NCBI GenBank assembly: GCA_964647905.1
Contig: CAZYJR010000008.1
Location: forward strand, 47,823 to 111,822
Direction of reading: 5' to 3'
DNA from: an uncultured Desulfobacterales bacterium
Lineage (GTDB): Bacteria > Desulfobacterota > DSM-4660 > Desulfatiglandales > HGW-15
Length of the DNA: 64,000 bases
A program made the translations under genes and the position numbers. Below the pieces are notes generated by a model that saw only the letters and a program-made list of their open reading frames with translations, ran no database searches and had not been told where the DNA came from. This document shows, one piece after another, positions 2,709 to 52,522 of the stretch; position 1 is the first letter of the stretch, and every line of letters starts with the position of its first letter.

Positions 2709-2719
2709 GAGGATACACG

Positions 2720-4590: not shown

Positions 4591-4615
4591 ACTTCGGGGA
4601 GGAGAATAATAATCG

Positions 4616-24544: not shown

Positions 24545-25199
24545 GGCCTTTGAAATCGAGGTCCTCGACAAGATGCACCGAGCCAAGGGTTTGGAGCCGC
24601 TCGTCTTCGGCGGCGGGACCATGCTCAGGCTCTGTCACGAGCTGCCCCGGTACTCCGTGGATCTGGATTTCTGGGTGATCAAACCCTTAGACGAGGAGAC
24701 CTATCGCGACAGGCTTCAGCGTACGTTCGAAAAGGACTACGAGGTCACGGATGCGGAAATCAAGTACCACTCCATCCTCTTCGAGCTCAGGTCCAACAGG
24801 TACCCCAGACGCCTGAAAATCGAGATTCGCCGAACCCTTGAACACTGGGACTTGCAGGAGAAGATCGCCTTCTCCAAATACGCGACTCTGCAGGTCGCCC
24901 TGAAGGCGCACACCCTGGATCAGACTATGAAAAACAAGATTTCCTCCTTCCTGGACCGCAAGGAGATTCGGGACTGCTTTGACATGGAGTTCATGCTCCG
25001 GCGGGGTGTGGCGCTGCCACCCCTGGACGCCGCTGTCCTGCGCCGACTTCAGGCCGGAATCCAAGACTTGAGGGAGCGGGATTTCAAGGTGAAGCTGGGC
25101 TCCGTCCTGGAGAGCGGCATCCGTTCCTACTACATCTCTGAGGGCTTTTCCTTTCTGAAAGAGAAACTTCACGAAACCCTTGCCGCCTCAGAAAAGTGA
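24522..25199 (+). CDS. AbiEii/AbiGii-family nucleotidyltransferase toxin
   Basis: FGGGTMLRL...SVDLDFW (hGG...DxD NTase motif). 23-nt overlap with abiEi. Confidence 0.75.
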   Translation: MDTFQKHEAFEIEVLDKMHRAKGLEPLVFGGGTMLRLCHELPRYSVDLDFWVIKPLDEETYRDRLQRTFEKDYEVTDAEIKYHSILFELRSNRYPRRLKIEIRRTLEHWDLQEKIAFSKYATLQVALKAHTLDQTMKNKISSFLDRKEIRDCFDMEFMLRRGVALPPLDAAVLRRLQAGIQDLRERDFKVKLGSVLESGIRSYYISEGFSFLKEKLHETLAASEK

Positions 25200-36128: not shown

Positions 36129-36359
36129 TCATGTAACATTCTTTATTCGAACGGCCTCCAGCGGGCAGGCCTCGATGCAGTCCCAGCAGGCCATGCACAT
36201 GTCCTGGAAGATTGCGGGCGATTCAAAGGCCCCGTCTATCTGCTTGGCCACTTTGTGAGTACAGGCCGATGCGGCCGCACAAAGCCCCTCCTCGGGGTTG
36301 CATTCCCCGGGGTTGCATATCTCATAATCTATCATGGCAAAGGTCTTCTTGGGCTGCAT
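36129..36359 (-). CDS. Small ferredoxin-like 4Fe-4S protein
   Basis: 76 aa. Motif CMACWDCIEACP plus an atypical N-terminal Cys set (CNPGEC...C...C). Last gene of the DsrE/Lpd operon. Confidence 0.6.
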   Translation of the reverse strand: MQPKKTFAMIDYEICNPGECNPEEGLCAAASACTHKVAKQIDGAFESPAIFQDMCMACWDCIEACPLEAVRIKNVT

Positions 36360-36373
36360 TCCCGCCTTCTCTT

Positions 36374-37810
36374 CTATCCGTGGAGCGATCGACCCGCAGC
36401 CTTCAAAGAGGCCTCGAACATTATCTCGGGCAAGGTGGGATGTGCGTGAATGGTCTCGGCCAGATCGCTGACAGTCGCCCCCATCCTTACGGCCAATGTC
36501 GCCTCGGCGATCAGGTCGGTCGCATGAGGACCGATGATATGTACGCCCAATACCCGGCTGGTACCAATTTCGGAGATGATTTTGGCCTGTCCCGCGATCT
36601 CTCCCATCACCTGAGGCTTGCCCAGGGCTCTGAAGAGCACGCTGCTCGATTGAACTTCACGGCCCTGATCCCCGGCCTGAGACTCGGTCAGACCGACTCC
36701 CGCAACCTCGGGAGAGGTGAAGACGGCGTTCGGCACGGCCTGGTAGTCCATAGTGCAATCTCCTCCGGCCGCGTTCTCGGCGGCAACCAGGCCCTCGGCG
36801 GTGGCCACATGGGCCAGCATGACCCTGGAAGGCCCCAGGACGTCTCCTATGGCATACACATCAGGATTGCTGGTCACCATACGGTGATCGGCCGAGACCC
36901 AGCCCTGGCCGTCGAGCTCCACGCCGAGGGAACCGAATCCCTCGATCCCGGAGGTGTTGGGAGTGCGCCCGATACAAACCAAGACCTTGTCCACCTGCTC
37001 AAAAAACGGTTTCTTGTCTTTTTCCGTAGGGTTTTCCAGGAAAGGGGACGGACCGATTTCCACGCTCAGCCGGCCGTCCCTTTCCTCGAGACCGGCTACG
37101 GTCCTATTGAGTATGAAATTGATTTTTCGTTTCTTCATTTCCCGCTGGAGGATCTTGGAGCAGTCCTCATCCAATGAGGGCAAGGGCAGCAGGCGGGAGA
37201 GGGCCTCCACGACGGTCACTTTGGATCCCAGTGCGGAGAGCATGCATGCGAACTCGCACCCGATCACCCCGCCTCCCACGATCAGAACGGACTCCGGCAC
37301 CTCCTCCAGGCCGAGGGCGTGATTGCTGGAGAGGACCCTCTCTCCGTCAAATTCCAGACCGGGTAGCTCAAAGATGCTGCTGCCCGTTGCCAGAATCAGC
37401 TTGTCCCAGGGCACCTGCTCCTCGTCCCCATTCCCGGTCCTGACCCCGAGCATGCCGCGCCCCTTTATGTAGCCGGTTCCTTGGATGTACCGGATGCGGT
37501 TCTGTTTCAACAACTTCAAGATGCCGCTTCTCTGGTCGCTGATGACCTTTCGCTTTCTCTCCATCAAGGCAGGCATGTCGGCACGGGCCGCGCCCTCCAA
37601 GGTGATGCCGAATGATTCGGCCTTTCTGATCTTATCTAATAACTCCGCCGTGGTGATCATCACCTTTGAGGGAATGCAGCCCCAGTTCAGGCAGGTGCCC
37701 CCGACGTCATCCCTCTCTATGACGGTCACCTCCGCGCCCATCCGGGCCGCTCCCACTGCGGCTGTGTATCCACCCGGGCCTGCACCGAGTACGGCAATCC
37801 TTGTCGCCAT
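36374..37810 (-). CDS. Dihydrolipoyl-dehydrogenase-like FAD/NAD(P)H pyridine nucleotide-disulfide oxidoreductase
   Basis: ATG at 37810 after GAGAGGAG. GAGPGGY dinucleotide fold, redox disulfide GGTCLNWGCIPSK, and C-terminal HAHPTLPE His-Glu dyad. Confidence 0.85.
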   Translation of the reverse strand: MATRIAVLGAGPGGYTAAVGAARMGAEVTVIERDDVGGTCLNWGCIPSKVMITTAELLDKIRKAESFGITLEGAARADMPALMERKRKVISDQRSGILKLLKQNRIRYIQGTGYIKGRGMLGVRTGNGDEEQVPWDKLILATGSSIFELPGLEFDGERVLSSNHALGLEEVPESVLIVGGGVIGCEFACMLSALGSKVTVVEALSRLLPLPSLDEDCSKILQREMKKRKINFILNRTVAGLEERDGRLSVEIGPSPFLENPTEKDKKPFFEQVDKVLVCIGRTPNTSGIEGFGSLGVELDGQGWVSADHRMVTSNPDVYAIGDVLGPSRVMLAHVATAEGLVAAENAAGGDCTMDYQAVPNAVFTSPEVAGVGLTESQAGDQGREVQSSSVLFRALGKPQVMGEIAGQAKIISEIGTSRVLGVHIIGPHATDLIAEATLAVRMGATVSDLAETIHAHPTLPEIMFEASLKAAGRSLHG

Positions 37811-37830
37811 GGGTCTCCTCTCCCGCTCCT

Positions 37831-38163
37831 TCAAAGAATTCCTATGACGCGATCACAGGAATCCATTAAATCAACCAGAGATTCATATGAACCCGTCAAA
37901 ACTTCCTGCCCGGCGGTGCCCACCTCGATGCCCCGCAGCCGGGCGTCGTCGCTCAGGACATGGACCTCCGCTTTCATATCCATCAGCTTACGGAGATCAA
38001 CGGGCCCTGGAGTCCTTGTCCCGAGAGAGCAAAAGCGGACGCCCTCTTGCAGCAGGAAAAGGCTTACGCTGTGACCTTTTGCAAGCATGTCCTCGGCGGT
38101 CTGGAGCGCACGCCCGGCATTGTCGGTCCCGGGCCCGCTCTTGAGAAGAAGGCCTATCTTCAT
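37831..38163 (-). CDS. DsrE/DsrF/DsrH-family protein (third of three)
   Basis: 110 aa. MKIGLLLKSGPG...SVSLFLLQEGV pattern typical of the DsrE-fold family. Confidence 0.65.
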   Translation of the reverse strand: MKIGLLLKSGPGTDNAGRALQTAEDMLAKGHSVSLFLLQEGVRFCSLGTRTPGPVDLRKLMDMKAEVHVLSDDARLRGIEVGTAGQEVLTGSYESLVDLMDSCDRVIGIL

Positions 38164-38178
38164 GATCCAGCTCCTTTA

Positions 38179-38559
38179 TCAGAATATGAGTTGGAGGCTC
38201 GTTGACGTCATCAGCTCTGATAACTTTTGGCGATCAATGATCTCCAACTCTTCAACCAGGTCATCTTCACCGAGGCCCCGTTTATCGAGCGACTCTTTCT
38301 CTACGTAGAACTCTGCGGGCGTCTCCTTCTTCTCGTATAGTCCCTTTGCAATGACCTCCTCCAAGGTTTCGCTCATTGACAGCCACGGTCGCTCGCCCGG
38401 GTCTTGATCCGCTTTGGCCAAGTAGACCCCGTCATCGATCAAGACGAAGACCGGCCGAAACCCCATGGCTATGGCGCCGTTTGTATGGCGAAGCCCCTCG
38501 GCCGCCTGAAACCCCCCGTAAGGCCCCCTGCGGACGACTATCAGAACATCCTGGGTCAT
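38179..38559 (-). CDS. DsrE/DsrF-family protein (Cys-less, DsrF/TusC-like position)
   Basis: 126 aa with SD AAAGGAGGAAG. VLIVVRRGPYGG...VFVLIDDGVY pattern and no cysteine. Confidence 0.65.
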   Translation of the reverse strand: MTQDVLIVVRRGPYGGFQAAEGLRHTNGAIAMGFRPVFVLIDDGVYLAKADQDPGERPWLSMSETLEEVIAKGLYEKKETPAEFYVEKESLDKRGLGEDDLVEELEIIDRQKLSELMTSTSLQLIF

Positions 38560-38574
38560 GACTTCCTCCTTTGC

Positions 38575-38928
38575 CTAAGGACCCACATTCAAGACTACGT
38601 CGGTCTCACTCAGGATTTGAAAAAGGCTCTTCAAGGTGCCGGGAGCGGCGCCCTCTATGAACTGCTCTTTTCGCAGACCGCGAAAACTAAAGCAGGTCCC
38701 TCAGAGATCCACCCGAACCCCCTGTTCAATCAGATCGGCGAAGCCCTTCTCGGCATTGGGCGCTCCCGACGCCCTCTGCCCCTTCAAGAACCCGTAAGTG
38801 CCGTCGCCCGAGCCCACCACGGTCAAGCCATGTCCCTTGCTCTTTGCGGCCTTCGCGATCCCCAGGACGGTATCCATGTCCTGGCCGCTGTAAGGCGACG
38901 AACTCAGCATCAAGGTGATATTTTTCAT
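38575..38928 (-). CDS. DsrE-like selenoprotein (in-frame UGA = Sec at codon 76)
   Basis: ATG at 38928 (MKNITLMLSSSPYSG...). TGA at 38703-38701, then 41 further in-frame codons (GTCFSFRGLRKEQFIEG...DVVLNVGP) to TAG at 38575. The UGA sits where DsrE/TusD carry the conserved active-site Cys (V-C-G-x-C). A SECIS-like hairpin follows. Confidence 0.7.
38662..38695 (-). other. SECIS-like hairpin downstream of the DsrE UGA
   Basis: RNA CUGCU-UUAG-UUUUCGC-GGUCU-GCGAAAA-G-AGCAG: 12 bp in total, starting 6 nt after the UGA. The apical GGUCUG is identical to the E. coli fdhF SECIS loop as I recall it. Confidence 0.6.
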
Positions 38929-38965
38929 TGATCTTCGCGCCTCCTTTTCTGATAGTCTTGGTGTC

Positions 38966-39418
38966 TCAGTCAGGATTCCTTTCTCTTTGGAGCTTGGATA
39001 TAAGAAATCTAGCGCCCCTGCGGGAGAGCCCGAGCCTCCCTGCAAGGGTCTCCTCATCCACGGGTCCCTCGGCCCTGAGGATCTCGAGCACCTCGGCCTC
39101 CAGCTCATCCAGCCAGTCCTCGAACAGGACAAGCAGCTCCGGATCCGCGATGGCCCGCAGCTGTTCGGACTGAGTCACCTTGTCCACCAGGCTGCGGCAC
39201 ATCTGCGTTGGGTCGACACCTTCGCCCATGCACTCGGCCAGTCACAGATACACCAGGCCGGACACCTTGTCCCCCTCGGATCCCCCGATCATATTCATGA
39301 GAAACCGTTCACGGGCCTCTTCATCCAGGTCCGCGAGAAGCCTTCCCAGGACTTCGGTGATCTTGGACAGGGCCTCTTCAGGATCCATTCCGGCGACGGC
39401 TTGTAGGAGTTCGTTCAT
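38966..39418 (-). CDS. Candidate selenoprotein with C-terminal winged-helix (AsnC/Lrp-type HTH) domain; in-frame UGA at codon 59
   Basis: ATG at 39418 (GGAG 4 nt upstream), 58 codons, TGA at 39244-39242, then the same frame continues into the 87-aa track ORF, whose own ATG lacks an SD. Context is ...SGLVYL-U-LAEC.... C-terminal EILRAEGPVDEETLAGRLGLSRRGARFLISKLQ. Confidence 0.5.
39204..39232 (-). other. SECIS-like hairpin downstream of the second UGA
   Basis: GGGCGA-AGGUG-UCG(A)CCC with a bulged A and outer pairs. The loop GGU falls at +22..+24 after the UGA, exactly as in the DsrE gene. Confidence 0.45.
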
Positions 39419-39442
39419 TTTACTCCACGCCCCTCCGTGGCA

Positions 39443-39778
39443 TCAAAAGGTTAAGGAGGCGTTCCTGGAGGCCAAGAGCTCGGCCGCCACACCGCTCAGC
39501 TCGCCTATCACATCCAGGATCCTGTGATCCGCCAGTTCGTAGTAGACAAACGGTCCCTTGCGCTCCACCCTCACCAGCAACGAGCGTTTGAGCTCCTTCA
39601 AGTGGTGCGATACCAACGGCTGCGACAACTCCAGCTCCTCCACGATGGCAGAGACCGATTTCTTCCCCCCGCTGAGGAGCAGCAGTATTCTCAAGCGGTT
39701 GCCGTCCGAGAGGCACTTGGCCAGAAAGGCCGCCAGCTGCAGGTGATCGTCATCCAAACCTGGCACACCCTTTTTCAA
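39443..39778 (-). CDS. ArsR/SmtB-family transcriptional regulator
   Basis: NRLRILLLLSGGKKSVSAIVEELELSQPLVSHHLKELKRSLLV...FVYYEL. The start (TTG at 39778 or a downstream GTG) is uncertain. Confidence 0.85.
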   Translation of the reverse strand: MKKGVPGLDDDHLQLAAFLAKCLSDGNRLRILLLLSGGKKSVSAIVEELELSQPLVSHHLKELKRSLLVRVERKGPFVYYELADHRILDVIGELSGVAAELLASRNASLTF

Positions 39779-39801
39779 TATATAAATGAATATTTATATA
39801 T
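39778..39801. promoter_or_regulatory. AT-rich 10-4-10 perfect inverted repeat (candidate ArsR operator)
   Basis: ATATATAAAT-GAAT-ATTTATATAT immediately upstream of arsR. 19 of 21 nt are shared with the element at 40581-40600. Confidence 0.5.
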
Positions 39802-40420
39802 CATGAGTCCCCTTGTCAACGACGATTTGATCCCCCCCTATCGGCTCTTGTGGCTGCTTCAGTCCCAGCAGACCATAATGATATGGAGGCAAATCAATGG
39901 TACCCCCTTCGATTGAAAACCCGGCCTGCTCGATCCATAGGCGGCATTCAGAAGGGCGCGGCCGGATTCCCATTGAAGGGCCGCGAGGGGTGGCGGGATC
40001 GTAGTTCCAGTGGATGACCGCCACCCGACCCCCGGGTCTGAGGATGCGCCGGGCCTCGCCCAGCAATGCGAGGGGGTCTTCGGCGTGCATGATGTTGAAA
40101 AGCATTGCCAGGTCCACCGAATCCGGCGGGAGCCCGGAGCCTTGGCCTACGAAGTCGCGCAAATGAGTCTTGACGTTCCCGCAACCCATCTCTCGAGCAC
40201 GGCGCCCGCATTCCTCTATCATGGCGGGTTCGATGTCCAGGCAATGGATAGTCCCGCTTATCCTCTTGGCGGCGGGAACCGCAAAGGTCCCATACCCGCA
40301 GCCGAAGTCCACGGCGTCCCGTACGGTCCGGTCCACCCTCAGAGCGGTGAATATCCGGTCCAGGTCAAAGAACGACTCCCATGCCTCCTCGTCCGGCATG
40401 TCGCTTTCCCGGGTCTTCAT
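39794..40420 (-). CDS. Class I SAM-dependent methyltransferase
   Basis: 208 aa. Motif I VDFGCGYGTF and post-I LDIEPAM; RILRPGGRVAV. Confidence 0.8.
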   Translation of the reverse strand: MKTRESDMPDEEAWESFFDLDRIFTALRVDRTVRDAVDFGCGYGTFAVPAAKRISGTIHCLDIEPAMIEECGRRAREMGCGNVKTHLRDFVGQGSGLPPDSVDLAMLFNIMHAEDPLALLGEARRILRPGGRVAVIHWNYDPATPRGPSMGIRPRPSECRLWIEQAGFSIEGGTIDLPPYHYGLLGLKQPQEPIGGDQIVVDKGTHDI

Positions 40421-40670: not shown

Positions 40671-41462
40671 TCAAATGATCCCGGAGGCCAGGGCCATGGC
40701 GATCCCGAAGAGAAGCAGGCCGGTCAAGGTCTGGACTGCACGCATGGTGACTTTGTGAAGAAACCGCCGGCCTATGAGCACGCCGGCGAACGCGGCAAGG
40801 ATTCCCGCGGCGATCAAGGGCCATTGTTCAGGCCCGAGCGGATTCGCCGCCTCCGCCAGGAAGAATGCGGCCGCATAGGTCGCGATCCGCGCCGTGTCCA
40901 CCATGAAACCGATCATGGCGTTGGTTCCCACAAACGCCTCGGTGGAAACGGCCGTCTTTGCAAGAAAGGCGGAGCGAAGCGCCCCCTGGTGCCCTGAGAA
41001 CCCTCCGAAGAAGCCTGACAGGAGACCACCCAGGACCAAGTGCCGGGGTTCGAACTGGACCGCCCTCAGGCGCGGCAGGAGCTCGAACAACGCGAAGGCC
41101 AGCATGAGGGCACCCATGGCGAGCTTCACAGGGGTAATCACCGCCATCCTGGGGCCCAGTGAATACCTGGCTATCTCCCCCAGATGGGATACATACCCCA
41201 GCGCGGCGGCACCCGCGAAAGCCGCCCCTATGGCGGGAATCCCGAATCGAAGGACAAGCCCCCGGTCCATGTGCCTGCCGACGACGGCGATCTTGAAGGC
41301 GTTGTTCGCGCCGTGGACCACTGCAGTGGCCGCGACCGCCACCTCCACCGGAAAGAATAAGGCGAAAACAGGCATGAGAAGGGTCCCCAGCCCGAACCCT
41401 GAAAAGAGGGTCAACCCCGAGACCAAGAGCGCCGCACAGGGCACCACGATGAACTCCATCAT
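40671..41462 (-). CDS. TauE/SafE (DUF81) family anion exporter
   Basis: 263 aa, about 8 TM segments, Gly-rich internally duplicated pattern typical of TauE/SafE. Confidence 0.75.
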   Translation of the reverse strand: MMEFIVVPCAALLVSGLTLFSGFGLGTLLMPVFALFFPVEVAVAATAVVHGANNAFKIAVVGRHMDRGLVLRFGIPAIGAAFAGAAALGYVSHLGEIARYSLGPRMAVITPVKLAMGALMLAFALFELLPRLRAVQFEPRHLVLGGLLSGFFGGFSGHQGALRSAFLAKTAVSTEAFVGTNAMIGFMVDTARIATYAAAFFLAEAANPLGPEQWPLIAAGILAAFAGVLIGRRFLHKVTMRAVQTLTGLLLFGIAMALASGII

Positions 41463-41973: not shown

Positions 41974-41991
41974 ATGCATATTCGTATGCAT
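41974..41991. promoter_or_regulatory. 7-bp inverted repeat overlapping the vapB start (candidate autoregulatory operator)
   Basis: ATGCATA-TTCG-TATGCAT. A TTGACT -35-like box lies at 41954. Confidence 0.35.
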
Positions 41992-42187
41992 GCGTACAAC
42001 GTTAAACATTGATGATGAAACTCTTGAAAGGGCCATGCAGCTCACCGGCATTCGAGAGAAGACCGCGCTGGTCAGGCGGGGACTGGAAGCCCTGATCGCT
42101 CAAGAGAGCAGCAAACGCCTGGCCAAGCTGGGCGGCACCGAAGGCCGGCTTGAGCAGCCCCGAAGGCGGCGCCCACCGGGCTTCTAG
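41990..42187 (+). CDS. vapB: VapB-type (DUF2191) antitoxin
   Basis: MRTTLNIDDETLERAMQLTGIREKTALVRRGLEALI is the canonical family N-terminus. Confidence 0.8.
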   Translation: MRTTLNIDDETLERAMQLTGIREKTALVRRGLEALIAQESSKRLAKLGGTEGRLEQPRRRRPPGF

Positions 42188-42549
42188 TGATGGTGCTCGT
42201 GGACACCTCTATCTGGGTTGACCATTTTAGGCGTGGAAACCGCCGCCTCAAGGCCCTTCTCCTGGACGCCCAAGTCGCCTGTCATCCCTTCGTAATAGGA
42301 GAGCTCGCCTGCGGCAACCTGGAAAACCGAGCTGAAATCCTCGCCCTTCTCGTCTCACTTCCAGCGCCACCGATTCTGTCCCGGGAGGAGTTCCTTCATT
42401 TCATAGACCGGCATCGCCTTATGGGCCGGGGGATCGGGTTCGTGGATGTCCACCTCCTTGCCTCGGCCCGCATTTCGGGACTGCAGTTGTGGACCTCTGA
42501 TAAGAGGCTCTTATCCGCAGCCCGGGAACTAGGCCTGTCATATGGTTGA
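42187..42549 (+). CDS. vapC: VapC PIN-domain ribonuclease toxin
   Basis: LVDTSIWVDHFR...VIGELACG... PIN acidic residues. Its start overlaps the vapB stop. Confidence 0.85.
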   Translation: MMVLVDTSIWVDHFRRGNRRLKALLLDAQVACHPFVIGELACGNLENRAEILALLVSLPAPPILSREEFLHFIDRHRLMGRGIGFVDVHLLASARISGLQLWTSDKRLLSAARELGLSYG

Positions 42550-46700: not shown

Positions 46701-47399
46701 CAAGAGCTCCAGCGTGTCCCTGTCCCCCTCCCTGACCGCGAAGCAGAAGTCCTGGCGGAACTCCGAAACGGGCCTGTTTACTATCCGCAGGTTTGTCAGC
46801 CCTATGTCCCTGATCAGGCGGAGAGCCACCAGGCGCTGGATGACCACCGCGTCATGGAGGCCCTGCGAGAGCTCGCGAAGGGCGTCCTCAAAGGTGGCGG
46901 TCGTGTGTATCCTTATCCCCCGATCCTCCCGGCGCAGGAACTCCTCGGTGTTGTCCCCTTTCATGACGGCCACCCGCCGCCCCTCCAGGTCCCTTATGTC
47001 GAGGATGCCCTTGGTTTCCTCCCTCACCACTATTGCGCCGTGAAGAGACATGTAGGGGAAGGTGAAGTCAAACAGTTCCTCCCGCTCGGGCGTGCGGCCC
47101 ACCAGGGGCAGGGCCTGGATCCCGCCTCTTTCCAGCCAACCCTTTACCTCGTCCCAAGGCCCCACCCGGAAGGTGACATCATGGCCCATTGCATGGAGCG
47201 CAGCGCGCATCAGCTCCACTGAGAAGCCGCCGGCAAGGCCGTCCTCGTCCACGATGCAAAAGGGCGGGTAATCGTACTCGCACCCGGAGATGACCGTGGG
47301 CCTGGTCAACGGGGCGGTCTCCGCGGCCTGTGCCGGGCCTTGAATCAGAAGCACCAATACCGAGGCGATGACCACGGACGGCGGCAGGCAGCGTTTCAT
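43740..47399 (-). CDS. Hybrid sensor histidine kinase (3x periplasmic solute-binding domains, TM, PAS, GAF, HisKA, HATPase, REC)
   Basis: The ATG at 47399 ([25 protein letters not shown] signal) overlaps the upstream stop. Three SBP_bac_3-like repeats. H-box [10 protein letters not shown]-boxes GTGLGLATV, and C-terminal ILVVEDE...TDVVMPGM receiver. Confidence 0.85.
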
Positions 47400-48796
47400 C
47401 AGAATGAATACCTCAAGCCCAAGTACCAGTTGGTGTTGTCCTTGAACCGGCCGAAGAACGTGTGATCCTCTTCTCCTGCAAACAGGTTTCCGCCGGTCTC
47501 CACGGTCCATTCGTCATTGACCTTGTAGGTGATCTTGGGCCTGAAGTAGGCGTCCTGATCGAAAGGCGAGTAAAAGGTGAAGAGGGAAAGAGTGAGGTCT
47601 TGATTCATGAGCAGCTTGGTGAGCCTGAGGGTCAGGAGGTGCCGGTTCTCGTCCCGGGCCCTGGACCCCGGCGGCAGGCGTCGCCTGTAGACCTCATAGT
47701 CCATCATATGCTCCAGGTAGTACTGCAACGACCCGGTGAACTCCTTGGCCAGCTCCCGCTCATAGCCTATCAGCAACCGGATTTCGCTGTTGTTGATAAA
47801 CGGGTCGAGACCGTCCCCGTTCTCCCGGGAGTCATAAAACCCCAACTCCAGGTTGCCGATCCCATGCCCCAGGGGGCCTTGAATGCTGGCCCCGTACACA
47901 TTGAGCCCGGGGAACAGGTAATCTCCGGATGCAGGATCCATGCCCGCGGGGCTCTTCCAATACCCGAAATAGCCGTAGAAGGCCAACTCGTAACCGGATA
48001 TGTTCCTATACGCCCTGAGAGCGATCTCATCGTGGTCGAACCAATGGTCCGGCTCCCTGGCGGCGATCCGGTGGTCTTCGCCCGCGATCCGCCCGAGTGA
48101 GGAGTTCCAATAGCTCAGCCTCTCCCCGTCTATGAAGCGGTCCGGGTCGAATCTGGGCGTATAGACCAGGTTGAGATTCAATGCATCGGTGAACCAGCCG
48201 ATGCGAACCGCGTTCCCTGGCGCCTTCAAGTACTCCACGTCCCTGCCGCTCAAGAACGACACCCAGTCCTTGGGAAAGAGATCATTGATGAAGATGAGGT
48301 CTCCCGTGCCCCAGGAGAGGACTTGGCGGCCCGCCCGCACGTCCACCGAGGGCAGGGGAGAAAAGGTGAAGCGGGCCCGCCGCCAGTCAACGGACGCCTC
48401 ATCGGTCACCCCGTCCAGGACCGCGTCGGCCGTTAGCTCCAAGGCCCCGGAGTCCCGGAACTTCTCCGTCTCGAGCTGCAGGCGTGCCTCCCCCAGGGTG
48501 GCGCTCTCGGATTGGGTGGGATCATCCCGGAGCCGCGGTCCGAACCTACCCTCCACATACCCGTGCAAGGGTATGTCGAGCAAGGCCTTTCCGCCGGGTT
48601 CCTCGGGTGTCGACTCCCGCCCGGAGCGCTCCGGTCCCTCCCCTGACAAGCCGGGAGGGAGTGCGGGCTCGGGTGAGGCTTCCTCCCCGAGACCGGCGGG
48701 CAGGGCCGGCTCATCTGCCTTCGCCTCTTGGGCGGCCCCGAGGAAAAGGGCGGCCGCTGCCAGCAGAACCGCCCGGATCGCTTTTCCCCTGCTCAT
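47399..48796 (-). CDS. Outer-membrane beta-barrel protein (partner of LolA-like/RND exporter)
   Basis: Signal peptide ...GAAQEAKA. Alternating beta-strand pattern and C-terminal ...GLRYSF aromatic terminus. ATGA overlap with the upstream gene. Confidence 0.6.
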   Translation of the reverse strand: MSRGKAIRAVLLAAAALFLGAAQEAKADEPALPAGLGEEASPEPALPPGLSGEGPERSGRESTPEEPGGKALLDIPLHGYVEGRFGPRLRDDPTQSESATLGEARLQLETEKFRDSGALELTADAVLDGVTDEASVDWRRARFTFSPLPSVDVRAGRQVLSWGTGDLIFINDLFPKDWVSFLSGRDVEYLKAPGNAVRIGWFTDALNLNLVYTPRFDPDRFIDGERLSYWNSSLGRIAGEDHRIAAREPDHWFDHDEIALRAYRNISGYELAFYGYFGYWKSPAGMDPASGDYLFPGLNVYGASIQGPLGHGIGNLELGFYDSRENGDGLDPFINNSEIRLLIGYERELAKEFTGSLQYYLEHMMDYEVYRRRLPPGSRARDENRHLLTLRLTKLLMNQDLTLSLFTFYSPFDQDAYFRPKITYKVNDEWTVETGGNLFAGEEDHTFFGRFKDNTNWYLGLRYSF

Positions 48797-49590
48797 CTCA
48801 GATATTCCCGCGGGGCCCGGCGGAGGTACCGCTCGGTGAAGATATCCTCCGGCAGGTCGTTATCGTATGCGACATCGCTGAACTCGAGGACAGTGTTCCC
48901 GCCGCCCTCGAGATCGCTCATCCGCTGCTTGGTGATGGTCTTTCGCCCCTGGATGTCCTTTACCTCCAGCACGGTCATCTCCCTGTACTTGTTGTCTCCT
49001 CTGTAATACTCCGCCTTCACCGGCAGGAATGTGGACTTGTGAACGTACACTATGTAGTAGTCGAACTCCACGTTATCCGGGTTCTTGGGCGTGTTTTTCA
49101 GGACGTAATAGTTCTCCGTGGTATCCGCCAATTCGTGCGAGTCCTCCTCGACACCCCGGCCTGATACGTCCTCGTAGAAGAAATGGGAGCCCACGAAGCT
49201 GGTCCGCTCGTCCGAAGCGGCGATGCGCTTGGTCACATCCAGGGCCGGCAGGTAGAGCCAGCGGTCGTCGTCGCGGCCCACGTGCTTCCACACCAGGAAC
49301 ACCGTGCCCCGCTCATCCGATGGCCGGTGAAAATACACATAGAAGCGCTGTTCCATGTCCCGGTCATCCATGTTCTTCCTGAGGATGGTAAGGGACTTGT
49401 TCCTGGTCCTGCCCTGGGCGTCGGTGATGGTCATCTCCACCCTGGCTTTGCCGTCCTCGCCCTGGTAGTAGGCCATGTGATTGGCCTCGGAGACGATCTC
49501 TTCCACGCTCGGTGCGGCGAGCGCGGGGATAACGCCCGGGGCCGACGCCACGAATACCACGATCAACCAGGCAAACACCTTCTTTCCCAT
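48793..49590 (-). CDS. Outer-membrane lipoprotein-sorting (LolA-like) protein
   Basis: Signal peptide. Family-typical YQGEDGKARVEMTI...RWLYLPAL...RIAASDERTSFVGSHFFYED. Confidence 0.7.
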   Translation of the reverse strand: MGKKVFAWLIVVFVASAPGVIPALAAPSVEEIVSEANHMAYYQGEDGKARVEMTITDAQGRTRNKSLTILRKNMDDRDMEQRFYVYFHRPSDERGTVFLVWKHVGRDDDRWLYLPALDVTKRIAASDERTSFVGSHFFYEDVSGRGVEEDSHELADTTENYYVLKNTPKNPDNVEFDYYIVYVHKSTFLPVKAEYYRGDNKYREMTVLEVKDIQGRKTITKQRMSDLEGGGNTVLEFSDVAYDNDLPEDIFTERYLRRAPREYLR

Positions 49591-49633
49591 AACCGACTCC
49601 TTTTTCCTTTCTCGTTCAAGCCGTGGATCAACC

Positions 49634-52522
49634 TCATGCGGAAGGGCTCTCCCTCCGCTCTTCGACCATGCACGACTCCCGTCTGGAGGTCAGGGCGCAG
49701 GAGAGGAACAGGACCAGGAGCACCGCCAGGCTGACCCATGTCCATTGAGTCCAGCTCAAGGTCAAGAATTGCTGCAGATTAACGATTATCAACGCCAATG
49801 CCGCCACCCCGGTGACCAGGCAGGTGCCGCAGTGGCAGATCAAGGAAAGCTTCCTGCTGCGGGGAAAGAGGAGCGGCTCCAGGTAGCGGATGAGAGAGGG
49901 CAGGATCACCAGGGTAGCGACACCCGAAACCAGCAGGATGGAGGCCATGAAGGTGCCGACCGTGATATAGGGCACCAATGGCGCCAGCAGCAGAGGTGTG
50001 AAACCCACCGCTATCACCACCACATTGCGGGCGATGGCCCTGGCCGGCTCCCCGAACACACCCGGGACCGTGGCCCTCCACCCCTCCCGGTCCCGGTACA
50101 TGGCCCTGGTCCGGACCAGGAAGTGTATGGCGAAATCCACAGCCAGGCCGATGGTAAGCGAGGAGAGGACCGCCACCGGCATGTCGTAGCTCTTGCCCGC
50201 CAGGCCTATGGCCCCGTAGATGACCGCCACGGTGACGGTCAAGGGGACCATGGAGAGGAGGCCCCACAGGGCTGAGCGGAAAAGCAGGATCATCATCAGG
50301 AGCACCACCAGGAAGCTCCCCAGAAAGGCCTGGAGCATGCCTCGCACCATCTTGGCCTGCCAGACCACGTTGATGTAGGTCAGGCCGAACCACCCCGCCT
50401 CGGCCTTCACAGGGGGCGGGTTTTCCTCCATGAAGGTCTCCATCGCCTTTACCACCCTTGTCATGTCCCTGTTGTCCCCGCTCTTCAACTGGACCCAGAG
50501 CGTGCTCTTGCGAAAGTCCGGGGTGACGAAGTGCCAGAGATCCTGGGGCCGGTGGCTGCTCTGGTAGGTGACCAGGGTCTGGGCGACCGCCCTGGAGGTC
50601 TCGGGGATCCTGAAGGCCTCCTCCCTCCCCTCGAAGAGCTCCCTGTGGACCGTCTTCACAATGTCGGCAAGGGAGTTGGATTTCCCCACTATTCCCGTTT
50701 CCAGAAGCCCCTCCTGAAGCCTCTCGATGTACCGCAGCATTTCAGGGTCCTTGAAGACATCGTCCCTTAGCTTTTCCCGGTCCAAGAAGAGCAGGAGCTC
50801 CTCCCACCCGTAGACCGAGTCGCCGGAGGCCTCCTCCATGCGCTCTCGGGCGTACTCCTCCAGGCCCGCCAAGAGCTCCTCCCTGTCCACCGCCCCGAAG
50901 GCCGGATCCTCGGCCTTGCCGGCGAGCAGGCCGGCAAGCTCCCCTGTGGTCTCTTCAAAGGCCTCCTCGGCGGCGAAGACCTCCAACCGCCCCCTGAAAT
51001 CCGCCGCATAACTCTCCGGGTCGAAAGGCCCGGCCTCGGGCGCCAGGCTCAGATAGGCCGTGTAGGTCCCTCCGAAATGGCTGTTCAAGACCCTGTCCGC
51101 AGCCCGTATGGGGTGGTCCTCCTTGAACCACTTGGTCGGGTTGTCGTTGATGACGATCCTGGAGATCCCGTAACCGGCCACCACTACAAGGACCACGGTC
51201 ACTCCCAGATAAACCTTGCCCCTGCGGTAGGTGTCTCCGCCCAAGGCCTTCAAGAAGCGGCCCATGATTCCCGGGCTTGGATGCTCTTCATCCGGCCGGA
51301 CCTTCAGCCCGAAGTCCGCCAGTCTCCGCTCGGGGATGAACATGATGTAGGCGGGGATCAGGGTGATGGTAAGGACCCAGGCGAAGAGGATCCCCAGGGC
51401 CACGAATATGCCGAAGACCTGAACCGGGGGAATGGGAGTCAGGGCCAGGGACGCGAACCCGGCGGCCGAGGTGCATGAAGTGTAGAGCATGGGCAGGAAA
51501 AGTGTGTCGATGGTCTCTCTAACGGTCTTCAAGCGGTCCCTTGCAGCCTGGTAACGATCAAAGAACTCGGAGAGGATGTGGATCGAGTCCAGGACCGCAA
51601 TCGGCATGATAAAGATAGGAATCATGGAGCTCATGATGTGGATGGTGTTCCCGGTGATCACCAGCAGGGACATGGTGAAGATCACCGAGGCCATGGCCAC
51701 CAGCATGGGGGCGACGATCAGGACCAGATTGCGGAAAAAGACCAGCATCAAGACAAAGACGACCAGCATGGCAAGGGGCGCCGAGATAGCCATCTGCTTG
51801 AACATCTCCACCCCGAAGACGTCGTTCGCCACAGGCAGCCCGGTGATGTGCCACTCCTCGTCCCCTCCCTCGAAGCCCTCGATCTTTTCCCTGAGCTTGG
51901 ACCAGACCTCATAGCTCAGGTCCTTGGACGTGATGGGCAGATATACGGCCAGGGCCCGTCCGTCCCCTGATACCAGCGTATCATTCAGGAAAGGGATCCG
52001 TTGCGCCTTGTCCCTGACCGCCAGGGCCTCCTGATCGTCCTTGGGCGGATTCGGCATGAGCCACTCGAACCGGACCGTTCCCATGCCGCCCTGCTCGATA
52101 TTGTCCACCGTGGAGGGTGCAATGATGTCCGCCCGGACCACCCCGGCCCGCGGGTCATCCAGGCCCAGGGCCCCGCCCTGCAGGGTCTGGGCGAACTCGG
52201 TCAATTCATACACCCGTCCGAGCGACTCCCGATTGAACACCCCCTGGGGATGCTCCTCATTGACCACGCCCACCACGATGATCTCGTTCAAGTCGAAAGT
52301 GGACTTCATCCGGTTGTGAAAGACCCGCACCGGTTCATCCGCGCTCAGCATGTTCTCGGGGTCGGTATCCACCCGGACCGGGTTGAGAAAGGGGAATCGC
52401 CCGGGGAAGACGCCGGGCAGGACGGCAAGGGCGCCCATTACGGCCACGAGAACGACTATGGTCCAGACCACGGTCCTGGGGCGATGAGTGGCCACATCGC
52501 TTGTGAAAAGAGCCAAGTTCAT
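49634..52522 (-). CDS. RND-superfamily exporter (MMPL/HpnN-like, two 6-TM bundles)
   Basis: 962 aa. Two sterol-sensing-like TM blocks separated by large soluble loops. SD AAGGA. Confidence 0.8.
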   Translation of the reverse strand: MNLALFTSDVATHRPRTVVWTIVVLVAVMGALAVLPGVFPGRFPFLNPVRVDTDPENMLSADEPVRVFHNRMKSTFDLNEIIVVGVVNEEHPQGVFNRESLGRVYELTEFAQTLQGGALGLDDPRAGVVRADIIAPSTVDNIEQGGMGTVRFEWLMPNPPKDDQEALAVRDKAQRIPFLNDTLVSGDGRALAVYLPITSKDLSYEVWSKLREKIEGFEGGDEEWHITGLPVANDVFGVEMFKQMAISAPLAMLVVFVLMLVFFRNLVLIVAPMLVAMASVIFTMSLLVITGNTIHIMSSMIPIFIMPIAVLDSIHILSEFFDRYQAARDRLKTVRETIDTLFLPMLYTSCTSAAGFASLALTPIPPVQVFGIFVALGILFAWVLTITLIPAYIMFIPERRLADFGLKVRPDEEHPSPGIMGRFLKALGGDTYRRGKVYLGVTVVLVVVAGYGISRIVINDNPTKWFKEDHPIRAADRVLNSHFGGTYTAYLSLAPEAGPFDPESYAADFRGRLEVFAAEEAFEETTGELAGLLAGKAEDPAFGAVDREELLAGLEEYARERMEEASGDSVYGWEELLLFLDREKLRDDVFKDPEMLRYIERLQEGLLETGIVGKSNSLADIVKTVHRELFEGREEAFRIPETSRAVAQTLVTYQSSHRPQDLWHFVTPDFRKSTLWVQLKSGDNRDMTRVVKAMETFMEENPPPVKAEAGWFGLTYINVVWQAKMVRGMLQAFLGSFLVVLLMMILLFRSALWGLLSMVPLTVTVAVIYGAIGLAGKSYDMPVAVLSSLTIGLAVDFAIHFLVRTRAMYRDREGWRATVPGVFGEPARAIARNVVVIAVGFTPLLLAPLVPYITVGTFMASILLVSGVATLVILPSLIRYLEPLLFPRSRKLSLICHCGTCLVTGVAALALIIVNLQQFLTLSWTQWTWVSLAVLLVLFLSCALTSRRESCMVEERRESPSA

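What the first reader, a model, noticed from the sequence alone, without database searches (positions are those of the whole stretch)
38575..38928. DsrE-like gene interrupted by UGA at the active-site Cys position, with an fdhF-like SECIS
The ORF track merges a spurious 5' extension and stops at TGA 38701-38703, giving a 75-aa DsrE stump when counted from MKNITL. Reading through yields 41 more in-frame codons (GTCFSFRGLRKEQFIEGAAPGTLKSLFQILSETDVVLNVGP*). These complete a normal-length (117 aa) DsrE fold. The UGA lands where DsrE/TusD have the conserved catalytic Cys of V-C-G-x-C. Six nt after the UGA a 12-bp hairpin (CUGCU..UUUUCGC-GGUCU-GCGAAAA..AGCAG) forms. Its apical GGUCUG is identical to what I recall of the E. 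coli fdhF SECIS loop. DsrE-like selenoproteins have been listed in selenoproteome surveys, so the family is probably known, but here it is mis-called and sits in a three-gene DsrE/F/H-like set.
Basis: partly seen in the sequence, partly recalled or inferred. Interest (0 to 1): 0.7.

Follow-up and report, generated by a model that had tools for sequence, protein, structure and literature searches.

The report
Mis-called DsrE-like selenoprotein gene with SECIS
A small sulfur-carrier-type (DsrE-like) gene that annotation pipelines cut short at a UGA codon almost certainly encodes a full-length selenocysteine protein. This protein family has been known since 2004-2005, so the gene is a correct but fairly ordinary catch, made more useful by its conserved gene neighbourhood.

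Summary
It runs from ATG 38928 through an in-frame TGA at 38703-38701 to TAG 38577-38575.

- **Protein family:** Read through, the 117-aa product matches Pfam DsrE end to end.
- **Relatives:** All 24 genome relatives keep TGA at the same codon. Their 41 downstream codons evolve like coding sequence.
- **Cys homologues:** Full-length distant homologues carry Cys in the U column. That column aligns with the catalytic Cys78 of DsrE and TusD.
- **SECIS:** The hairpin after the UGA meets all four published bacterial SECIS criteria. Its 6-bp upper stem is paired in every relative, and two pairs show compensatory synonymous changes. Its GGUCUG matches E. coli fdhF, one codon further from the UGA.

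This is a selenoprotein gene of the known DsrE-like UxxC family, so it is a new member and not a new kind. Databases truncate it to 75 aa.

Context adds value. It is the only active-site-bearing paralogue of a conserved E/F/H-like triad. The triad sits directly after tsoR and tsoA (a second selenoprotein gene) and before a dihydrolipoyl-dehydrogenase-type flavoprotein.

The function is inferred only. I propose a sulfane-sulfur (or selenium/metalloid) carrier or reductase recycled by the flavoprotein.

The parts
38575..38928 (-). DsrE-like selenoprotein gene: 117 codons including one Sec-UGA, plus the TAG stop. Active-site motif is DL-U-GTC-FSFRG (UxxC).
   Evidence: Translation. PF02635 matches residues 2-114 against profile 1-115/116, E 1e-16. 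The best solved relative is E. coli YchN 1jx7, full length. There are 24 syntenic orthologues.
38701..38703 (-). In-frame UGA read as selenocysteine (residue 76).
   Evidence: TGA sits at the same codon in 24 of 24 relatives and in more distant Nitrospirae and Rokubacteria forms. Cys occupies this column in the full-length homologues P0124, P0129, P0138, P0140, P0143, P0144 and P0148. It aligns with DsrE/TusD Cys78.
38662..38695 (-). Bacterial SECIS hairpin inside the coding sequence. Lower stem is 38695-38691 with 38666-38662. Upper stem is 38686-38680 with 38674-38668. Apical loop GGUCU is 38679-38675, 21 nt after the UGA.
   Evidence: Fold of -13.5 kcal/mol, z = -3.18. The upper 6 bp are 100% paired in 24 distinct sequences, with two pairs changed on both sides. 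All four bSECIS criteria of PMC13188914 are met. GGUCUG is identical to fdhF.
38179..38559 (-). DsrF/TusC-like paralogue, 126 aa. It has no cysteine at all and carries Glu in the U column.
   Evidence: PF02635 E 5.7e-12. TusC models score 43.5 bits, below the cutoff of 94. Follows the Sec gene in 24 of 24 loci. Alignment A4.
37831..38163 (-). DsrH/TusB-like paralogue, 110 aa. It carries Leu in the U column, and no Cys in the motif.
   Evidence: PF02635 E 2.9e-7 and PF04077 E 1e-3. TusB model scores 20.6 bits, below the cutoff of 49.2. Present in every locus with enough sequence. Alignment A4.
36374..37834 (-). Dihydrolipoyl-dehydrogenase-type flavoprotein disulfide reductase (CLNWGC redox centre, HAHPTLPE C-terminal motif). 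The likely true start is ATG 37810.
   Evidence: TIGR01350 scores 484.7 bits against a cutoff of 408.8. MerA is second at 335 bits, below its 454 cutoff. Directly follows the triad in 10 of the 24 relatives.
36129..36359 (-). Small 4Fe-4S ferredoxin-like protein (76 aa), the last gene of the same-strand run.
   Evidence: Weak Fer4 match, E 2.8e-4. Found after the reductase only in the closest relative, L001.
38966..39418 (-). tsoA: LULAXC-motif selenoprotein gene with its own in-frame UGA at 39244-39242 (YL-U-LAEC). It ends 37 nt upstream of the DsrE-like gene.
   Evidence: Translation. The read-through scores 212.9 bits on NF045695 against a cutoff of 170. LULAEC is conserved in 10 related loci. 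A hairpin with a GUCG loop lies 24 nt after the UGA.
39443..39778 (-). tsoR: ArsR/SmtB-type regulator.
   Evidence: NF045707 scores 156.3 bits against a cutoff of 115. Lies next to tsoA and the triad in many relatives.
39794..40420 (-). SAM-dependent methyltransferase, 15 nt upstream of tsoR on the same strand. Likely part of the same unit.
   Evidence: Methyltransf_25/11/31 and UbiE family hits. Weak ArsM-like hits. Methyltransferases also flank the triad in the Nitrospirae and Chloroflexi loci.
40671..41462 (-). TauE/SafE (TSUP) family permease on the same strand, upstream.
   Evidence: PF01925 E 5.6e-21. A TauE gene also lies near the triad in L028.

Best explanation
**What is shown.** The UGA at 38703-38701 is not a stop. 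It is decoded as selenocysteine, directed by a bacterial SECIS hairpin that lies inside the next 45 nt of coding sequence. The loop GGUCU sits 21 nt after the UGA. The product is a 117-aa DsrE-fold protein of the YchN-like branch with a U76-x-x-C79 centre. Sec occupies the position of the persulfide-carrying Cys78 of DsrE and TusD.

**What is inferred.** The protein is the single catalytic subunit of a TusBCD/DsrEFH-style hetero-oligomer formed with the two adjacent paralogues, which lack the motif. Sec76 would take up sulfane sulfur as a selenopersulfide. Cys79 would resolve it to a selenenylsulfide, releasing sulfide or passing the sulfur on. The co-transcribed dihydrolipoyl-dehydrogenase-type flavoprotein would re-reduce the Se-S bond with NAD(P)H. 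The unit would be switched by the ArsR-type TsoR, possibly together with the selenoprotein TsoA.

My confidence in the recoding is about 0.93. My confidence in this particular chemistry is about 0.35.
For: **Recoding**
- The read-through completes the DsrE profile, covering positions 1-115 of 116.
- All 120 best database homologues cover only residues 1-75 of the query, and 104 of them are exactly 75 aa. Pipelines therefore truncate the gene systematically.
- TGA sits at the same codon in 24 of 24 Desulfobacterales-type relatives.
- Downstream codons differ at rates of 0.152, 0.092 and 0.505 per codon position, against 0.165, 0.110 and 0.558 upstream.
- Cys fills the U column in seven full-length homologues.
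- The U column aligns with DsrE and TusD Cys78 and with the first Cys of YchN's CKTC.
- TGA is the ordinary stop of 30 of 46 window genes, so the genetic code is standard.

**SECIS**
- The loop has 5 nt, begins with GG, and lies 21 nt after the UGA. The upper stem is 7 bp and the fold is -13.5 kcal/mol. All four criteria quoted in PMC13188914 are met.
- The upper stem is never unpaired in relatives. Pair counts are C-G 16 / U-A 5 / U-G 3 and C-G 21 / U-A 3, all through synonymous third positions.
- Distant Sec forms in Nitrospirae and Rokubacteria have different 7-bp hairpins at the same place.
- The one Cys form examined folds no better than shuffled sequence.
- A second selenoprotein gene, tsoA, is adjacent and passes its curated NCBIfam cutoff.

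**Function**
- The triad is conserved in 24 of 24 loci. The Lpd-type reductase follows it in 10 of them and in the window.
- Only the E-like paralogue carries the motif.
- Across four phyla the triad follows an ArsR-family regulator and is accompanied by SQR-like or other flavoprotein reductases, TauE, methyltransferases and MMPL exporters.
- This resembles sulfide and sulfane-sulfur clusters that combine a repressor, DsrE/TusA/rhodanese carriers, SQR and TauE (PMC9918477).
Against: - No selA, selB, selD or tRNA-Sec was found in the 64-kb window, so Sec-decoding capacity of this genome is inferred and not shown.
- No Rfam family matched the hairpin.
- In wider sequence context the fold is not better than shuffles (z = -0.8 to -1.2).
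- The lower stem is not conserved.
- The covarying sequences are related, so the number of independent compensatory events is small, probably 2-4.
- For the function, no TusA, rhodanese, DsrC/TusE or persulfide dioxygenase was seen next to the triad in the window.
- The F- and H-like proteins score below the TusC and TusB thresholds. The E-like protein hits no NCBIfam model at all.
- The Lpd-type gene is absent from about half of the relatives and could simply be a metabolic L-protein. In L034 the triad lies beside glycine-cleavage genes.
- Nothing here distinguishes sulfur from selenium or a metalloid as the bound species.
Confidence: 0.9

Rival explanations
1. Same selenoprotein, different chemistry. 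The U-x-x-C pair binds or reduces a soft metalloid or selenium species (selenide/selenite, arsenite/thioarsenate, tellurite, mercury) and not sulfane sulfur. The operon would then be a metalloid-handling unit: an ArsR/SmtB-type metalloregulator, a methyltransferase, a MerA/Lpd-type reductase, and exporters.
For: - TsoR is curated as an ArsR/SmtB-type metalloregulator.
- The methyltransferase has weak ArsM-like hits.
- MerA is the second-best model for the flavoprotein.
- The window carries an ArrA-like arsenate-reductase-type operon, scoring 1270.8 bits end to end.
- In L028 a Sec-containing SelD gene sits about 3 kb from the triad, next to a methyltransferase and TauE.
- YedF, a DsrE-domain CGxC protein, is linked to selenium metabolism (PMC5322559).
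- MMPL/RND exporters recur near the triad.
Against: - The ArrA-like score is below its curated cutoff of 1600, and the gene lies 33 kb away.
- The ArsM-like hits are about 26 bits against cutoffs above 260.
- The flavoprotein passes the lipoamide-dehydrogenase cutoff but not the MerA cutoff.
- The relatives' flavoproteins look like type III sulfide:quinone reductases, which points to sulfur.
- All characterised DsrE-family members carry sulfur.
Confidence: 0.3
2. The UGA is recoded, but not to selenocysteine. It could be read as Cys, Trp or Gly through near-cognate read-through or an unusual tRNA. The hairpin would then only slow the ribosome.
For: No Sec machinery was seen in the window. Direct chemical identification of residue 76 is lacking.
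Against: - The hairpin matches the SelB-binding consensus down to the fdhF GGUCUG loop and spacing.
- TGA is the normal stop of 30 of 46 genes.
- The U column pairs with Cys in homologues, which is the classic Sec/Cys signature.
- A curated selenoprotein family member, TsoA, is adjacent.
- DsrE-like UxxC is an accepted selenoprotein family (PMC1088965, PMC13188914).
Confidence: 0.04
3. The UGA is a genuine stop. The gene is a 75-aa stump or pseudogene, and the downstream 123 nt are non-coding or a relic.
For: Every automated annotation calls it that way. One relative, L015, has an additional in-frame TAG.
Against: - A relic would not keep an open frame or 3-periodic substitution equal to the upstream part in 22 sequences.
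- A relic would not keep invariant C79, R83 and G84 across 40%-identical homologues from four phyla.
- The 75-aa stump lacks the active-site strand and the C-terminal third of the DsrE fold.
Confidence: 0.02

Closest known systems
DsrE-like selenoprotein family (PF02635, UxxC motif). It is listed in the review table under reference 12, and reported from the Sargasso Sea (2005) and as a Desulfovibrio vulgaris selenoprotein (2006).
   Same: Same Pfam family, same UxxC redox motif with Sec in the first position, SECIS immediately downstream inside the ORF, and a deltaproteobacterial (Desulfobacterota) host.
   Different: I could not retrieve the published example (WP_014524487.1), so its relation to this clade is unknown. 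The published entries describe single genes. Here the gene is one of a fixed E/F/H-like triad next to tsoR-tsoA. NCBIfam has no model that catches it, so records still show a 75-aa stump.
E. coli YchN (PDB 1jx7)
   Same: It is the closest solved relative over the full length: 117 aa, profile E 1.6e-12, with CKTC aligned to UGTC and the following RG conserved.
   Different: YchN has Cys and not Sec. By my recollection of the 1jx7 structure it is a homo-oligomer encoded alone. Its function is unknown.
TusBCD (E. coli, 2d1p) and DsrEFH (Allochromatium vinosum, 2hy5) sulfur-relay heterohexamers
   Same: Three adjacent paralogous DsrE-fold genes, of which only one carries the active residue. U76 aligns with Cys78 of TusD and DsrE. 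The likely working principle is a carrier of an activated chalcogen on one residue.
   Different: - All three proteins fail the equivalog thresholds.
- There is a second resolving Cys (UxxC) that DsrE and TusD lack.
- The H-like subunit has no counterpart of DsrH Cys20.
- No TusA, TusE/DsrC or DsrAB lies nearby.
- The partner here is a flavoprotein disulfide reductase.
Tso 'three selenoprotein operon' (TsoA, TsoB, TsoC, TsoR; Haft and Tolstoy 2025, as summarised in PMC13188914)
   Same: tsoR and tsoA are present and pass curated cutoffs, directly upstream on the same strand. The review notes that tso operons have unrelated selenoprotein genes adjacent.
   Different: No TsoB or TsoC was found in the window (and the Pfam scans). 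The DsrE-like protein is not one of the named Tso families. The original paper was not available to me, so I cannot say whether this DsrE-like neighbour is already described there.
Sulfide / sulfane-sulfur homeostasis clusters: S. aureus cst (CstR, CstA = rhodanese-TusA-DsrE fusion, CstB, SQR, TauE), B. licheniformis yrkD-yrkJ, and BigR/SqrR regulons
   Same: A repressor plus a DsrE-type carrier, a flavoprotein (SQR-like in the Nitrospirae and Chloroflexi relatives) and a TauE permease.
   Different: No persulfide dioxygenase, rhodanese or TusA lies in the window's unit. The host is an anaerobe. The carrier is a Sec-containing three-subunit set. The reductase is Lpd-type.
E. coli fdhF SECIS
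   Same: Identical GGUCUG at the top of the hairpin, in the same reading frame (GGU CUG = Gly-Leu), inside the ORF directly after the UGA.
   Different: The loop lies 21 nt and not 18 nt after the UGA. The stem sequence is unrelated. I saw no bulged U in the conserved upper stem.

Membership tests
Bacterial selenoprotein gene (Sec-UGA + bSECIS) | In-frame UGA conserved at the same codon in orthologues, with protein-coding conservation continuing downstream. | tested here: met
   24 of 24 loci have TGA at codon 76. Substitution rates per codon position are 0.152, 0.092 and 0.505 downstream against 0.165, 0.110 and 0.558 upstream. The same holds in Nitrospirae and Rokubacteria forms.
Bacterial selenoprotein gene (Sec-UGA + bSECIS) | Sec/Cys pair: homologues carry Cys in the column of the UGA. 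| tested here: met
   P0124, P0129, P0138, P0140, P0143, P0144 and P0148 have Cys there. The column is invariant as C/U in alignment A3.
Bacterial selenoprotein gene (Sec-UGA + bSECIS) | bSECIS model: 3-9 nt apical loop, 4-16 bp upper stem, G in the first two loop positions, 16-37 nt from UGA to loop, MFE <= -7.5 kcal/mol (PMC13188914). | tested here: met
   Loop GGUCU (5 nt), 7-bp upper stem, 21-nt spacing, -13.5 kcal/mol. The stem is kept by compensatory changes.
Bacterial selenoprotein gene (Sec-UGA + bSECIS) | Sec machinery (selA, selB, selC, selD) in the same genome. | not testable with these tools
   None is in the 64-kb window, and the rest of the genome is not available. Indirect support comes from the adjacent curated selenoprotein gene tsoA and from a Sec-containing SelD beside the triad in relative L028.
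Bacterial selenoprotein gene (Sec-UGA + bSECIS) | Selenium actually incorporated at the UGA position. | not testable with these tools
   Requires 75Se labelling or mass spectrometry.
DsrE-like selenoprotein family (PF02635, UxxC) | PF02635 match above the gathering score over the whole domain. | tested here: met
   61.5 bits against a cutoff of 22.7, covering profile 1-115 of 116.
DsrE-like selenoprotein family (PF02635, UxxC) | UxxC motif with Sec first. | tested here: met
   DL-U-GTC, conserved as UGTC, UGGC or UGSC in all Sec forms seen.
TusBCD / DsrEFH sulfur relay complex | Subunits reach the curated equivalog scores for TusD/DsrE, TusC/DsrF and TusB/DsrH. | tested here: not met
   The E-like protein has no NCBIfam hit. 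The F-like protein scores 43.5 bits against 94.15. The H-like protein scores 20.6 bits against 49.2.
TusBCD / DsrEFH sulfur relay complex | Active-site residue at the position of DsrE/TusD Cys78. | tested here: met
   U76 aligns with Cys78 of 2hy5_A and with residue 90 of the tagged chain 2d1p_A, which is Cys78.
TusBCD / DsrEFH sulfur relay complex | Partner proteins TusA and TusE/DsrC (and, for Dsr, DsrAB) encoded in the system. | tested here: not met
   None appears among the ORFs scanned around the triad in the window or in the gene tables of relatives.
TusBCD / DsrEFH sulfur relay complex | Hetero-oligomer of the three paralogues. | not testable with these tools
   Only co-linearity in 24 of 24 loci and the single-active-subunit pattern are available.
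Tso (three selenoprotein operon) system | TsoR and TsoA present above curated cutoffs. | tested here: met
   TsoR scores 156.3 bits against 115. TsoA read-through scores 212.9 bits against 170.
Tso (three selenoprotein operon) system | TsoB (rhodanese/DsbD-like, UxxxxU) and TsoC (NEPxGxxU) present. | tested here: not met
   No NEPxGxxU motif occurs in any frame of the window or of 24 loci. No rhodanese or DsbD domain appears among the window ORFs scanned.

The most novel reading that the evidence does not exclude
The DsrE(Sec)-F-H triad is not just another single redox selenoprotein. It may be the core of an undescribed selenium-dependent chalcogen or metalloid relay conserved in at least four phyla (Desulfobacterota, Nitrospirota, Rokubacteria, and a Cys version in Chloroflexota). 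In this reading a TusBCD-like hetero-oligomer has its Cys78-equivalent replaced by Sec and gains a resolving Cys. A dedicated flavoprotein (Lpd-type or SQR-like) recycles it, and an ArsR-type regulator controls it, in Desulfobacterales together with the selenoprotein TsoA. This would give the first functional context for both the DsrE-like and the TsoA selenoprotein families.
Probability: 0.3. Interest if true: 0.55.

Novelty: new member of a known kind. Interest (0 to 1): 0.35.

Why it matters
**Annotation.** More than a hundred database clusters of this protein are stored as 75-76-aa "DsrE family" stumps, with a 140-nt false intergenic gap. NCBIfam has no model that would rescue them. The curated alignment and SECIS given here would fix that.

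**Biology.** The DsrE-like selenoprotein family has been listed for twenty years without a function. This locus shows three things about it:
- The Sec sits exactly at the persulfide-carrier position of DsrE and TusD.
- The gene always travels with two inactive paralogues.
- It often travels with tsoR-tsoA and a flavoprotein disulfide reductase.

Together these give a concrete, testable hypothesis of a selenopersulfide relay or reductase for two orphan selenoprotein families. The finding does not change any principle of Sec decoding or of sulfur relay.

Tried and rejected
- **Rfam:** A scan of 38000-39500 at E <= 10 gave no SECIS family. It returned only two chance-level hits, one of which (HCV_SL1412, 39214-39262) merely marks the tsoA hairpin.
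- **C-terminal search:** A word-indexed search with only the C-terminal 48 residues found no candidate. Neither Cys-form close relatives nor correctly extended Sec forms are in that database.
- I searched with the 75-aa N-terminal part instead and made no 3D model.
- **Unavailable paper:** The Haft and Tolstoy 2025 paper that defines the Tso system is not in the library.
- **Alternative genetic code (UGA = Trp or Gly):** Rejected, because TGA ends 30 of 46 genes.
- **Possible Sec in the molybdopterin ORF 53695-56409:** Its long N-terminal extension looked like a possible Sec-interrupted Fdh. The upstream frame does not look coding, and the Fdh-alpha profile starts at residue 219. I therefore treat it as a spurious ORF extension.
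- **SelD in the window:** A tblastn search with the L028 SelD found nothing.
- **12-bp hairpin as the conserved element:** Rejected in part, because only the upper stem is conserved.
Full report
**1. The observation**

The feature is on the minus strand. Reading window 38928 to 38575 as reverse complement gives MKNITL...VRVDL, then TGA at 38703-38701. Forty-one sense codons follow (GTCFSFRGLRKEQFIEGAAPGTLKSLFQILSETDVVLNVGP), then TAG at 38577-38575. A Shine-Dalgarno-like AAAAGGAGG precedes the ATG.

The next gene starts 15 nt after the TAG.

The hairpin is CUGCU-UUAG-UUUUCGC-GGUCU-GCGAAAA-G-AGCAG (38695-38662). It starts 5 nt after the UGA and folds at -13.5 kcal/mol. Its z-score is -3.18 and 1 of 200 shuffles folds as well. 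Embedded in 54 or 71 nt, the z-score is only -1.2 or -0.8.

**2. Is the UGA read through?**

- **Protein family.** With Cys substituted for the stop, the 117-aa protein matches Pfam DsrE (PF02635) from profile position 1 to 115 of 116, E 1e-16. The 75-aa stump lacks the last third of the fold.
- **Database copies.** In a 5.8-billion-protein database the 120 best homologues all cover only 63-64% of the query, which is residues 1-75. Of these, 104 are exactly 75 aa, named "DsrE family protein" or "TusD component". Gene callers leave a 140-nt gap before the next gene.
- **Genome relatives.** A scan of one genome per species returned 24 loci, all Desulfobacterales-type MAGs, with tblastn matches spanning query residues 1-117. 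Every one has TGA at codon 76 and an open, conserved frame to a stop at codon 117 or 118.
- **Substitution pattern.** Mean pairwise differences per codon position downstream of the UGA are 0.152, 0.092 and 0.505. Upstream they are 0.165, 0.110 and 0.558. The tail is under the same protein-level selection as the head.
- **Genetic code.** TGA terminates 30 of 46 Pfam-supported genes in the window, so the code is standard.

**3. The Sec/Cys pair and the active site**

An exhaustive HMMER search with the 75-aa N-terminal part found two kinds of hit:
- Full-length homologues of 111-138 aa at 29-42% identity.
- Further 76-aa stumps.

Aligned, seven full-length homologues have Cys in the U column, for example P0124 from Chloroflexota with ELCGTCLNFRG. 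The 76-aa stumps come from Nitrospirae and Rokubacteria. They also read through a TGA, as YL-U-GGC-LNFRR and HL-U-GSC-LRFRG.

In a 15-sequence alignment the columns C/U76, C79, R83 and G93 are invariant. A profile of that alignment was searched against PDB sequences:
- It hits E. coli YchN (1jx7) over its full length (E 1.6e-12), with CKTC under UGTC.
- It hits A. vinosum DsrE (2hy5_A, E 1.4e-8) and E. coli TusD (2d1p_A, E 1.7e-7), with the U column on Cys78 of both.

From established work on TusBCD and DsrEFH, which I cite from memory, Cys78 is the persulfide-carrying residue. The second Cys (C79 here) is a YchN/YedF-type feature that DsrE and TusD lack.

**4. The SECIS**

The published bacterial model, quoted from PMC13188914, asks for four things:
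- A 3-9 nt loop.
- A 4-16 bp upper stem.
- A G in the first two loop positions.
- 16-37 nt between UGA and loop, with MFE <= -7.5 kcal/mol.

Here the loop is GGUCU (5 nt), the upper stem is 7 bp, the spacing is 21 nt, and the MFE is -13.5 kcal/mol. All four are met.

In the 25-sequence alignment (24 distinct) the upper six pairs are paired in every sequence. Two of them change on both sides, with counts of C-G 16 / U-A 5 / U-G 3 and C-G 21 / U-A 3, and no mismatch. These are synonymous third positions: Phe UUY against Arg CGR, and Arg CGY against Leu CUR. RNA pairing therefore constrains codon choice.

Against shuffled-partner controls the covariation score is exceeded 0 of 500 times. Slid registers drop pairing from 91% to 40-58%. 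The tool warns that related sequences inflate such numbers, and I count only a few independent events.

The Nitrospirae and Rokubacteria Sec forms carry different 7-bp hairpins at the same place. These are CUUUCGC-CGUGCA-GCGAAAG and GCGAUUC-AGGG-GAAUCGC, 21 and 18 nt after the UGA. The single Cys form examined folds no better than shuffles (z = 0.04).

TGACACGGCCCATCGGTTGCAGGTCTGCACC... is in fdhF of 5419 of 5426 complete E. coli genomes. GGUCUG is therefore shared, one codon closer to the UGA in fdhF and in the same frame. Rfam has no model that matches.

**5. Surroundings**

The gene sits in a tight same-strand run on the minus strand, with gaps of 14-37 nt from the methyltransferase onward and a 250-nt gap between the permease and the methyltransferase:

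| Gene | Coordinates | Evidence |
|---|---|---|
| TauE permease | 40671-41462 | |
| Methyltransferase | 39794-40420 | |
| tsoR | 39443-39778 | NF045707, 156 bits against cutoff 115, |
| tsoA | 38966-39418 | see below |
| DsrE-like (Sec) | 38575-38928 | this finding |
| DsrF/TusC-like | 38179-38559 | |
| DsrH/TusB-like | 37831-38163 | |
| Dihydrolipoyl-dehydrogenase-type flavoprotein | 36374-37834 | TIGR01350, 484.7 bits against cutoff 408.8, |
| Small ferredoxin | 36129-36359 | |

tsoA is itself split by a TGA at 39244-39242, giving YL-U-LAEC. Read through, it scores 212.9 bits on NF045695 "LULAXC motif selenoprotein TsoA" against a cutoff of 170. Two selenoprotein genes are therefore adjacent.

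According to the 2026 review, Tso is the "three selenoprotein operon" of Haft and Tolstoy 2025. TsoB and TsoC were not found here.

Only the E-like paralogue has the motif. The F-like protein has Glu in the U column and no cysteine at all. The H-like protein has Leu there. This single-active-subunit pattern mirrors TusBCD and DsrEFH. However, all three proteins fail the curated TusD, TusC and TusB thresholds.

Synteny across the relatives is as follows:
- The E-F-H triad is present in all 24 relatives.
- tsoR or tsoA lies within a few kb in about 13 of them.
- The Lpd-type gene follows the triad in 10.

The more distant forms, as Sec in Nitrospirae and Rokubacteria and as Cys in Chloroflexota, again lie behind an ArsR-family gene, which in Chloroflexota is fused to a rhodanese. 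They are followed by a Pyr_redox_2 protein that is type III SQR-like, by an MMPL exporter with a LolA-like protein, by methyltransferases, by TauE, and in one case by a Sec-containing SelD. The window also has an MMPL gene, a LolA-like gene and a third gene at 47399-52522. One relative has the triad next to glycine-cleavage and lipoate-ligase genes.

No selA, selB, selD or tRNA-Sec is in the window.

**6. How it most likely works**

Shown with high confidence: SelB-type recoding of UGA-76 by an intragenic SECIS, giving a 117-aa DsrE-fold selenoprotein with a U-x-x-C centre at the DsrE/TusD Cys78 position.

Inferred: the protein is the catalytic subunit of an E/F/H hetero-oligomer. Sec76 picks up sulfane sulfur as a selenopersulfide. 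Cys79 resolves it to a selenenylsulfide. The neighbouring NAD(P)H-dependent flavoprotein re-reduces it. TsoR, perhaps with TsoA, senses the stress species.

The analogy is to sulfide and sulfane-sulfur clusters built from a repressor, DsrE/TusA/rhodanese carriers, SQR and TauE (PMC9918477).

The main functional rival is a selenium- or metalloid-handling role. Its supports are:
- The ArsR/SmtB-type regulator.
- The methyltransferase.
- MerA as the second-best model for the flavoprotein.
- An ArrA-like operon at 126-5296.
- SelD next to the triad in L028.
- The selenium-linked YedF DsrE domain (PMC5322559).

The data do not decide between these two.

**7. Comparison with what is known, and novelty**

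DsrE-like UxxC selenoproteins are listed in three places:
- The Sargasso Sea survey (PMC1088965).
- The Desulfovibrio vulgaris selenoproteome (PMC1794560).
- The 2026 review table (PMC13188914).

The kind is therefore known and this is a new member. What I did not find stated in the accessible literature is:
- The fixed E/F/H triad.
- The alignment of Sec with Cys78.
- The recurrent ArsR, flavoprotein and exporter context across phyla.
- The direct tsoR-tsoA linkage.

**8. Verdict**

This is a correct, well-supported detection of a mis-annotated selenoprotein of a known family. It has a useful but unproven functional context. I rate interest at 0.35.

Noticed in passing
window 38966-39418 (-), UGA at 39244-39242: A second selenoprotein gene, tsoA (LULAXC motif, here YL-U-LAEC), is split into 58-aa and 87-aa ORFs by an in-frame TGA. 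Read through, it scores 212.9 bits on NF045695 against a cutoff of 170. A hairpin with a GUCG loop lies 24 nt after the UGA. The chance-level Rfam hit 'HCV_SL1412' at 39214-39262 is that hairpin.
   Followed up: partly
window 39443-39778 (-): tsoR, an ArsR/SmtB-type regulator (NF045707, 156 bits against cutoff 115), has a single Cys (C22). tsoR-tsoA occurs here without TsoB or TsoC, the other two members of the named 'three selenoprotein operon'.
   Followed up: partly
window 126-5296 (+): An ArrA-like molybdopterin oxidoreductase matches NF041714 end to end at 1270.8 bits, below the 1600 cutoff. It is followed by a 4Fe-4S subunit, an NrfD-type membrane subunit and a TorD-like chaperone. Two further molybdopterin oxidoreductase genes lie at 13207-15741 (+) and 53695-56409 (-).
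   Followed up: no
L028 8510-9445 and about 40 codons upstream: In a Nitrospirae relative a SelD gene lies about 3 kb from the DsrE(Sec)FH triad, next to a methyltransferase and TauE. It is itself cut at an in-frame TGA (SSCAG-U-AAKF), so it is a Sec-containing SelD called too short.
   Followed up: partly
L015 4499-4849: This Desulfosarcina MAG copy of the DsrE-like gene has an extra in-frame TAG at codon 69 in addition to the Sec-TGA. It is either a sequencing error or a pseudogene.
   Followed up: no
L034 9001-16360: In one relative the triad lies directly beside gcvT, gcvH, gcvPA, gcvPB and a lipoate-protein ligase. In the window and 10 loci a dihydrolipoyl dehydrogenase follows the triad. 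This hints at a possible lipoyl-protein link that I did not pursue.
   Followed up: no
window 47399-52522 (-); L027 7315-10231; L029 6067-10231: An MMPL/RND exporter followed by a LolA-like (PF17131) protein and a third gene recurs within 10 kb of the triad in the window and directly after it in Nitrospirae and Rokubacteria relatives.
   Followed up: partly
window 53695-56409 (-): The 904-aa ORF has about 200 N-terminal residues with no family match. The Fdh-alpha profile begins at residue 219, and the upstream frame does not look coding. This is probably a spurious ORF extension and not a Sec interruption.
   Followed up: partly
window 41990-42549 (+) and 24522-25199 (+): A small antitoxin-like ORF is followed by a 120-aa ORF that looked PIN/VapC-like by eye. 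I ran no family search on either. An AbiEii-type nucleotidyltransferase toxin gene (PF08843) lies at 24522-25199. These look like toxin-antitoxin modules scattered in the region.
   Followed up: no
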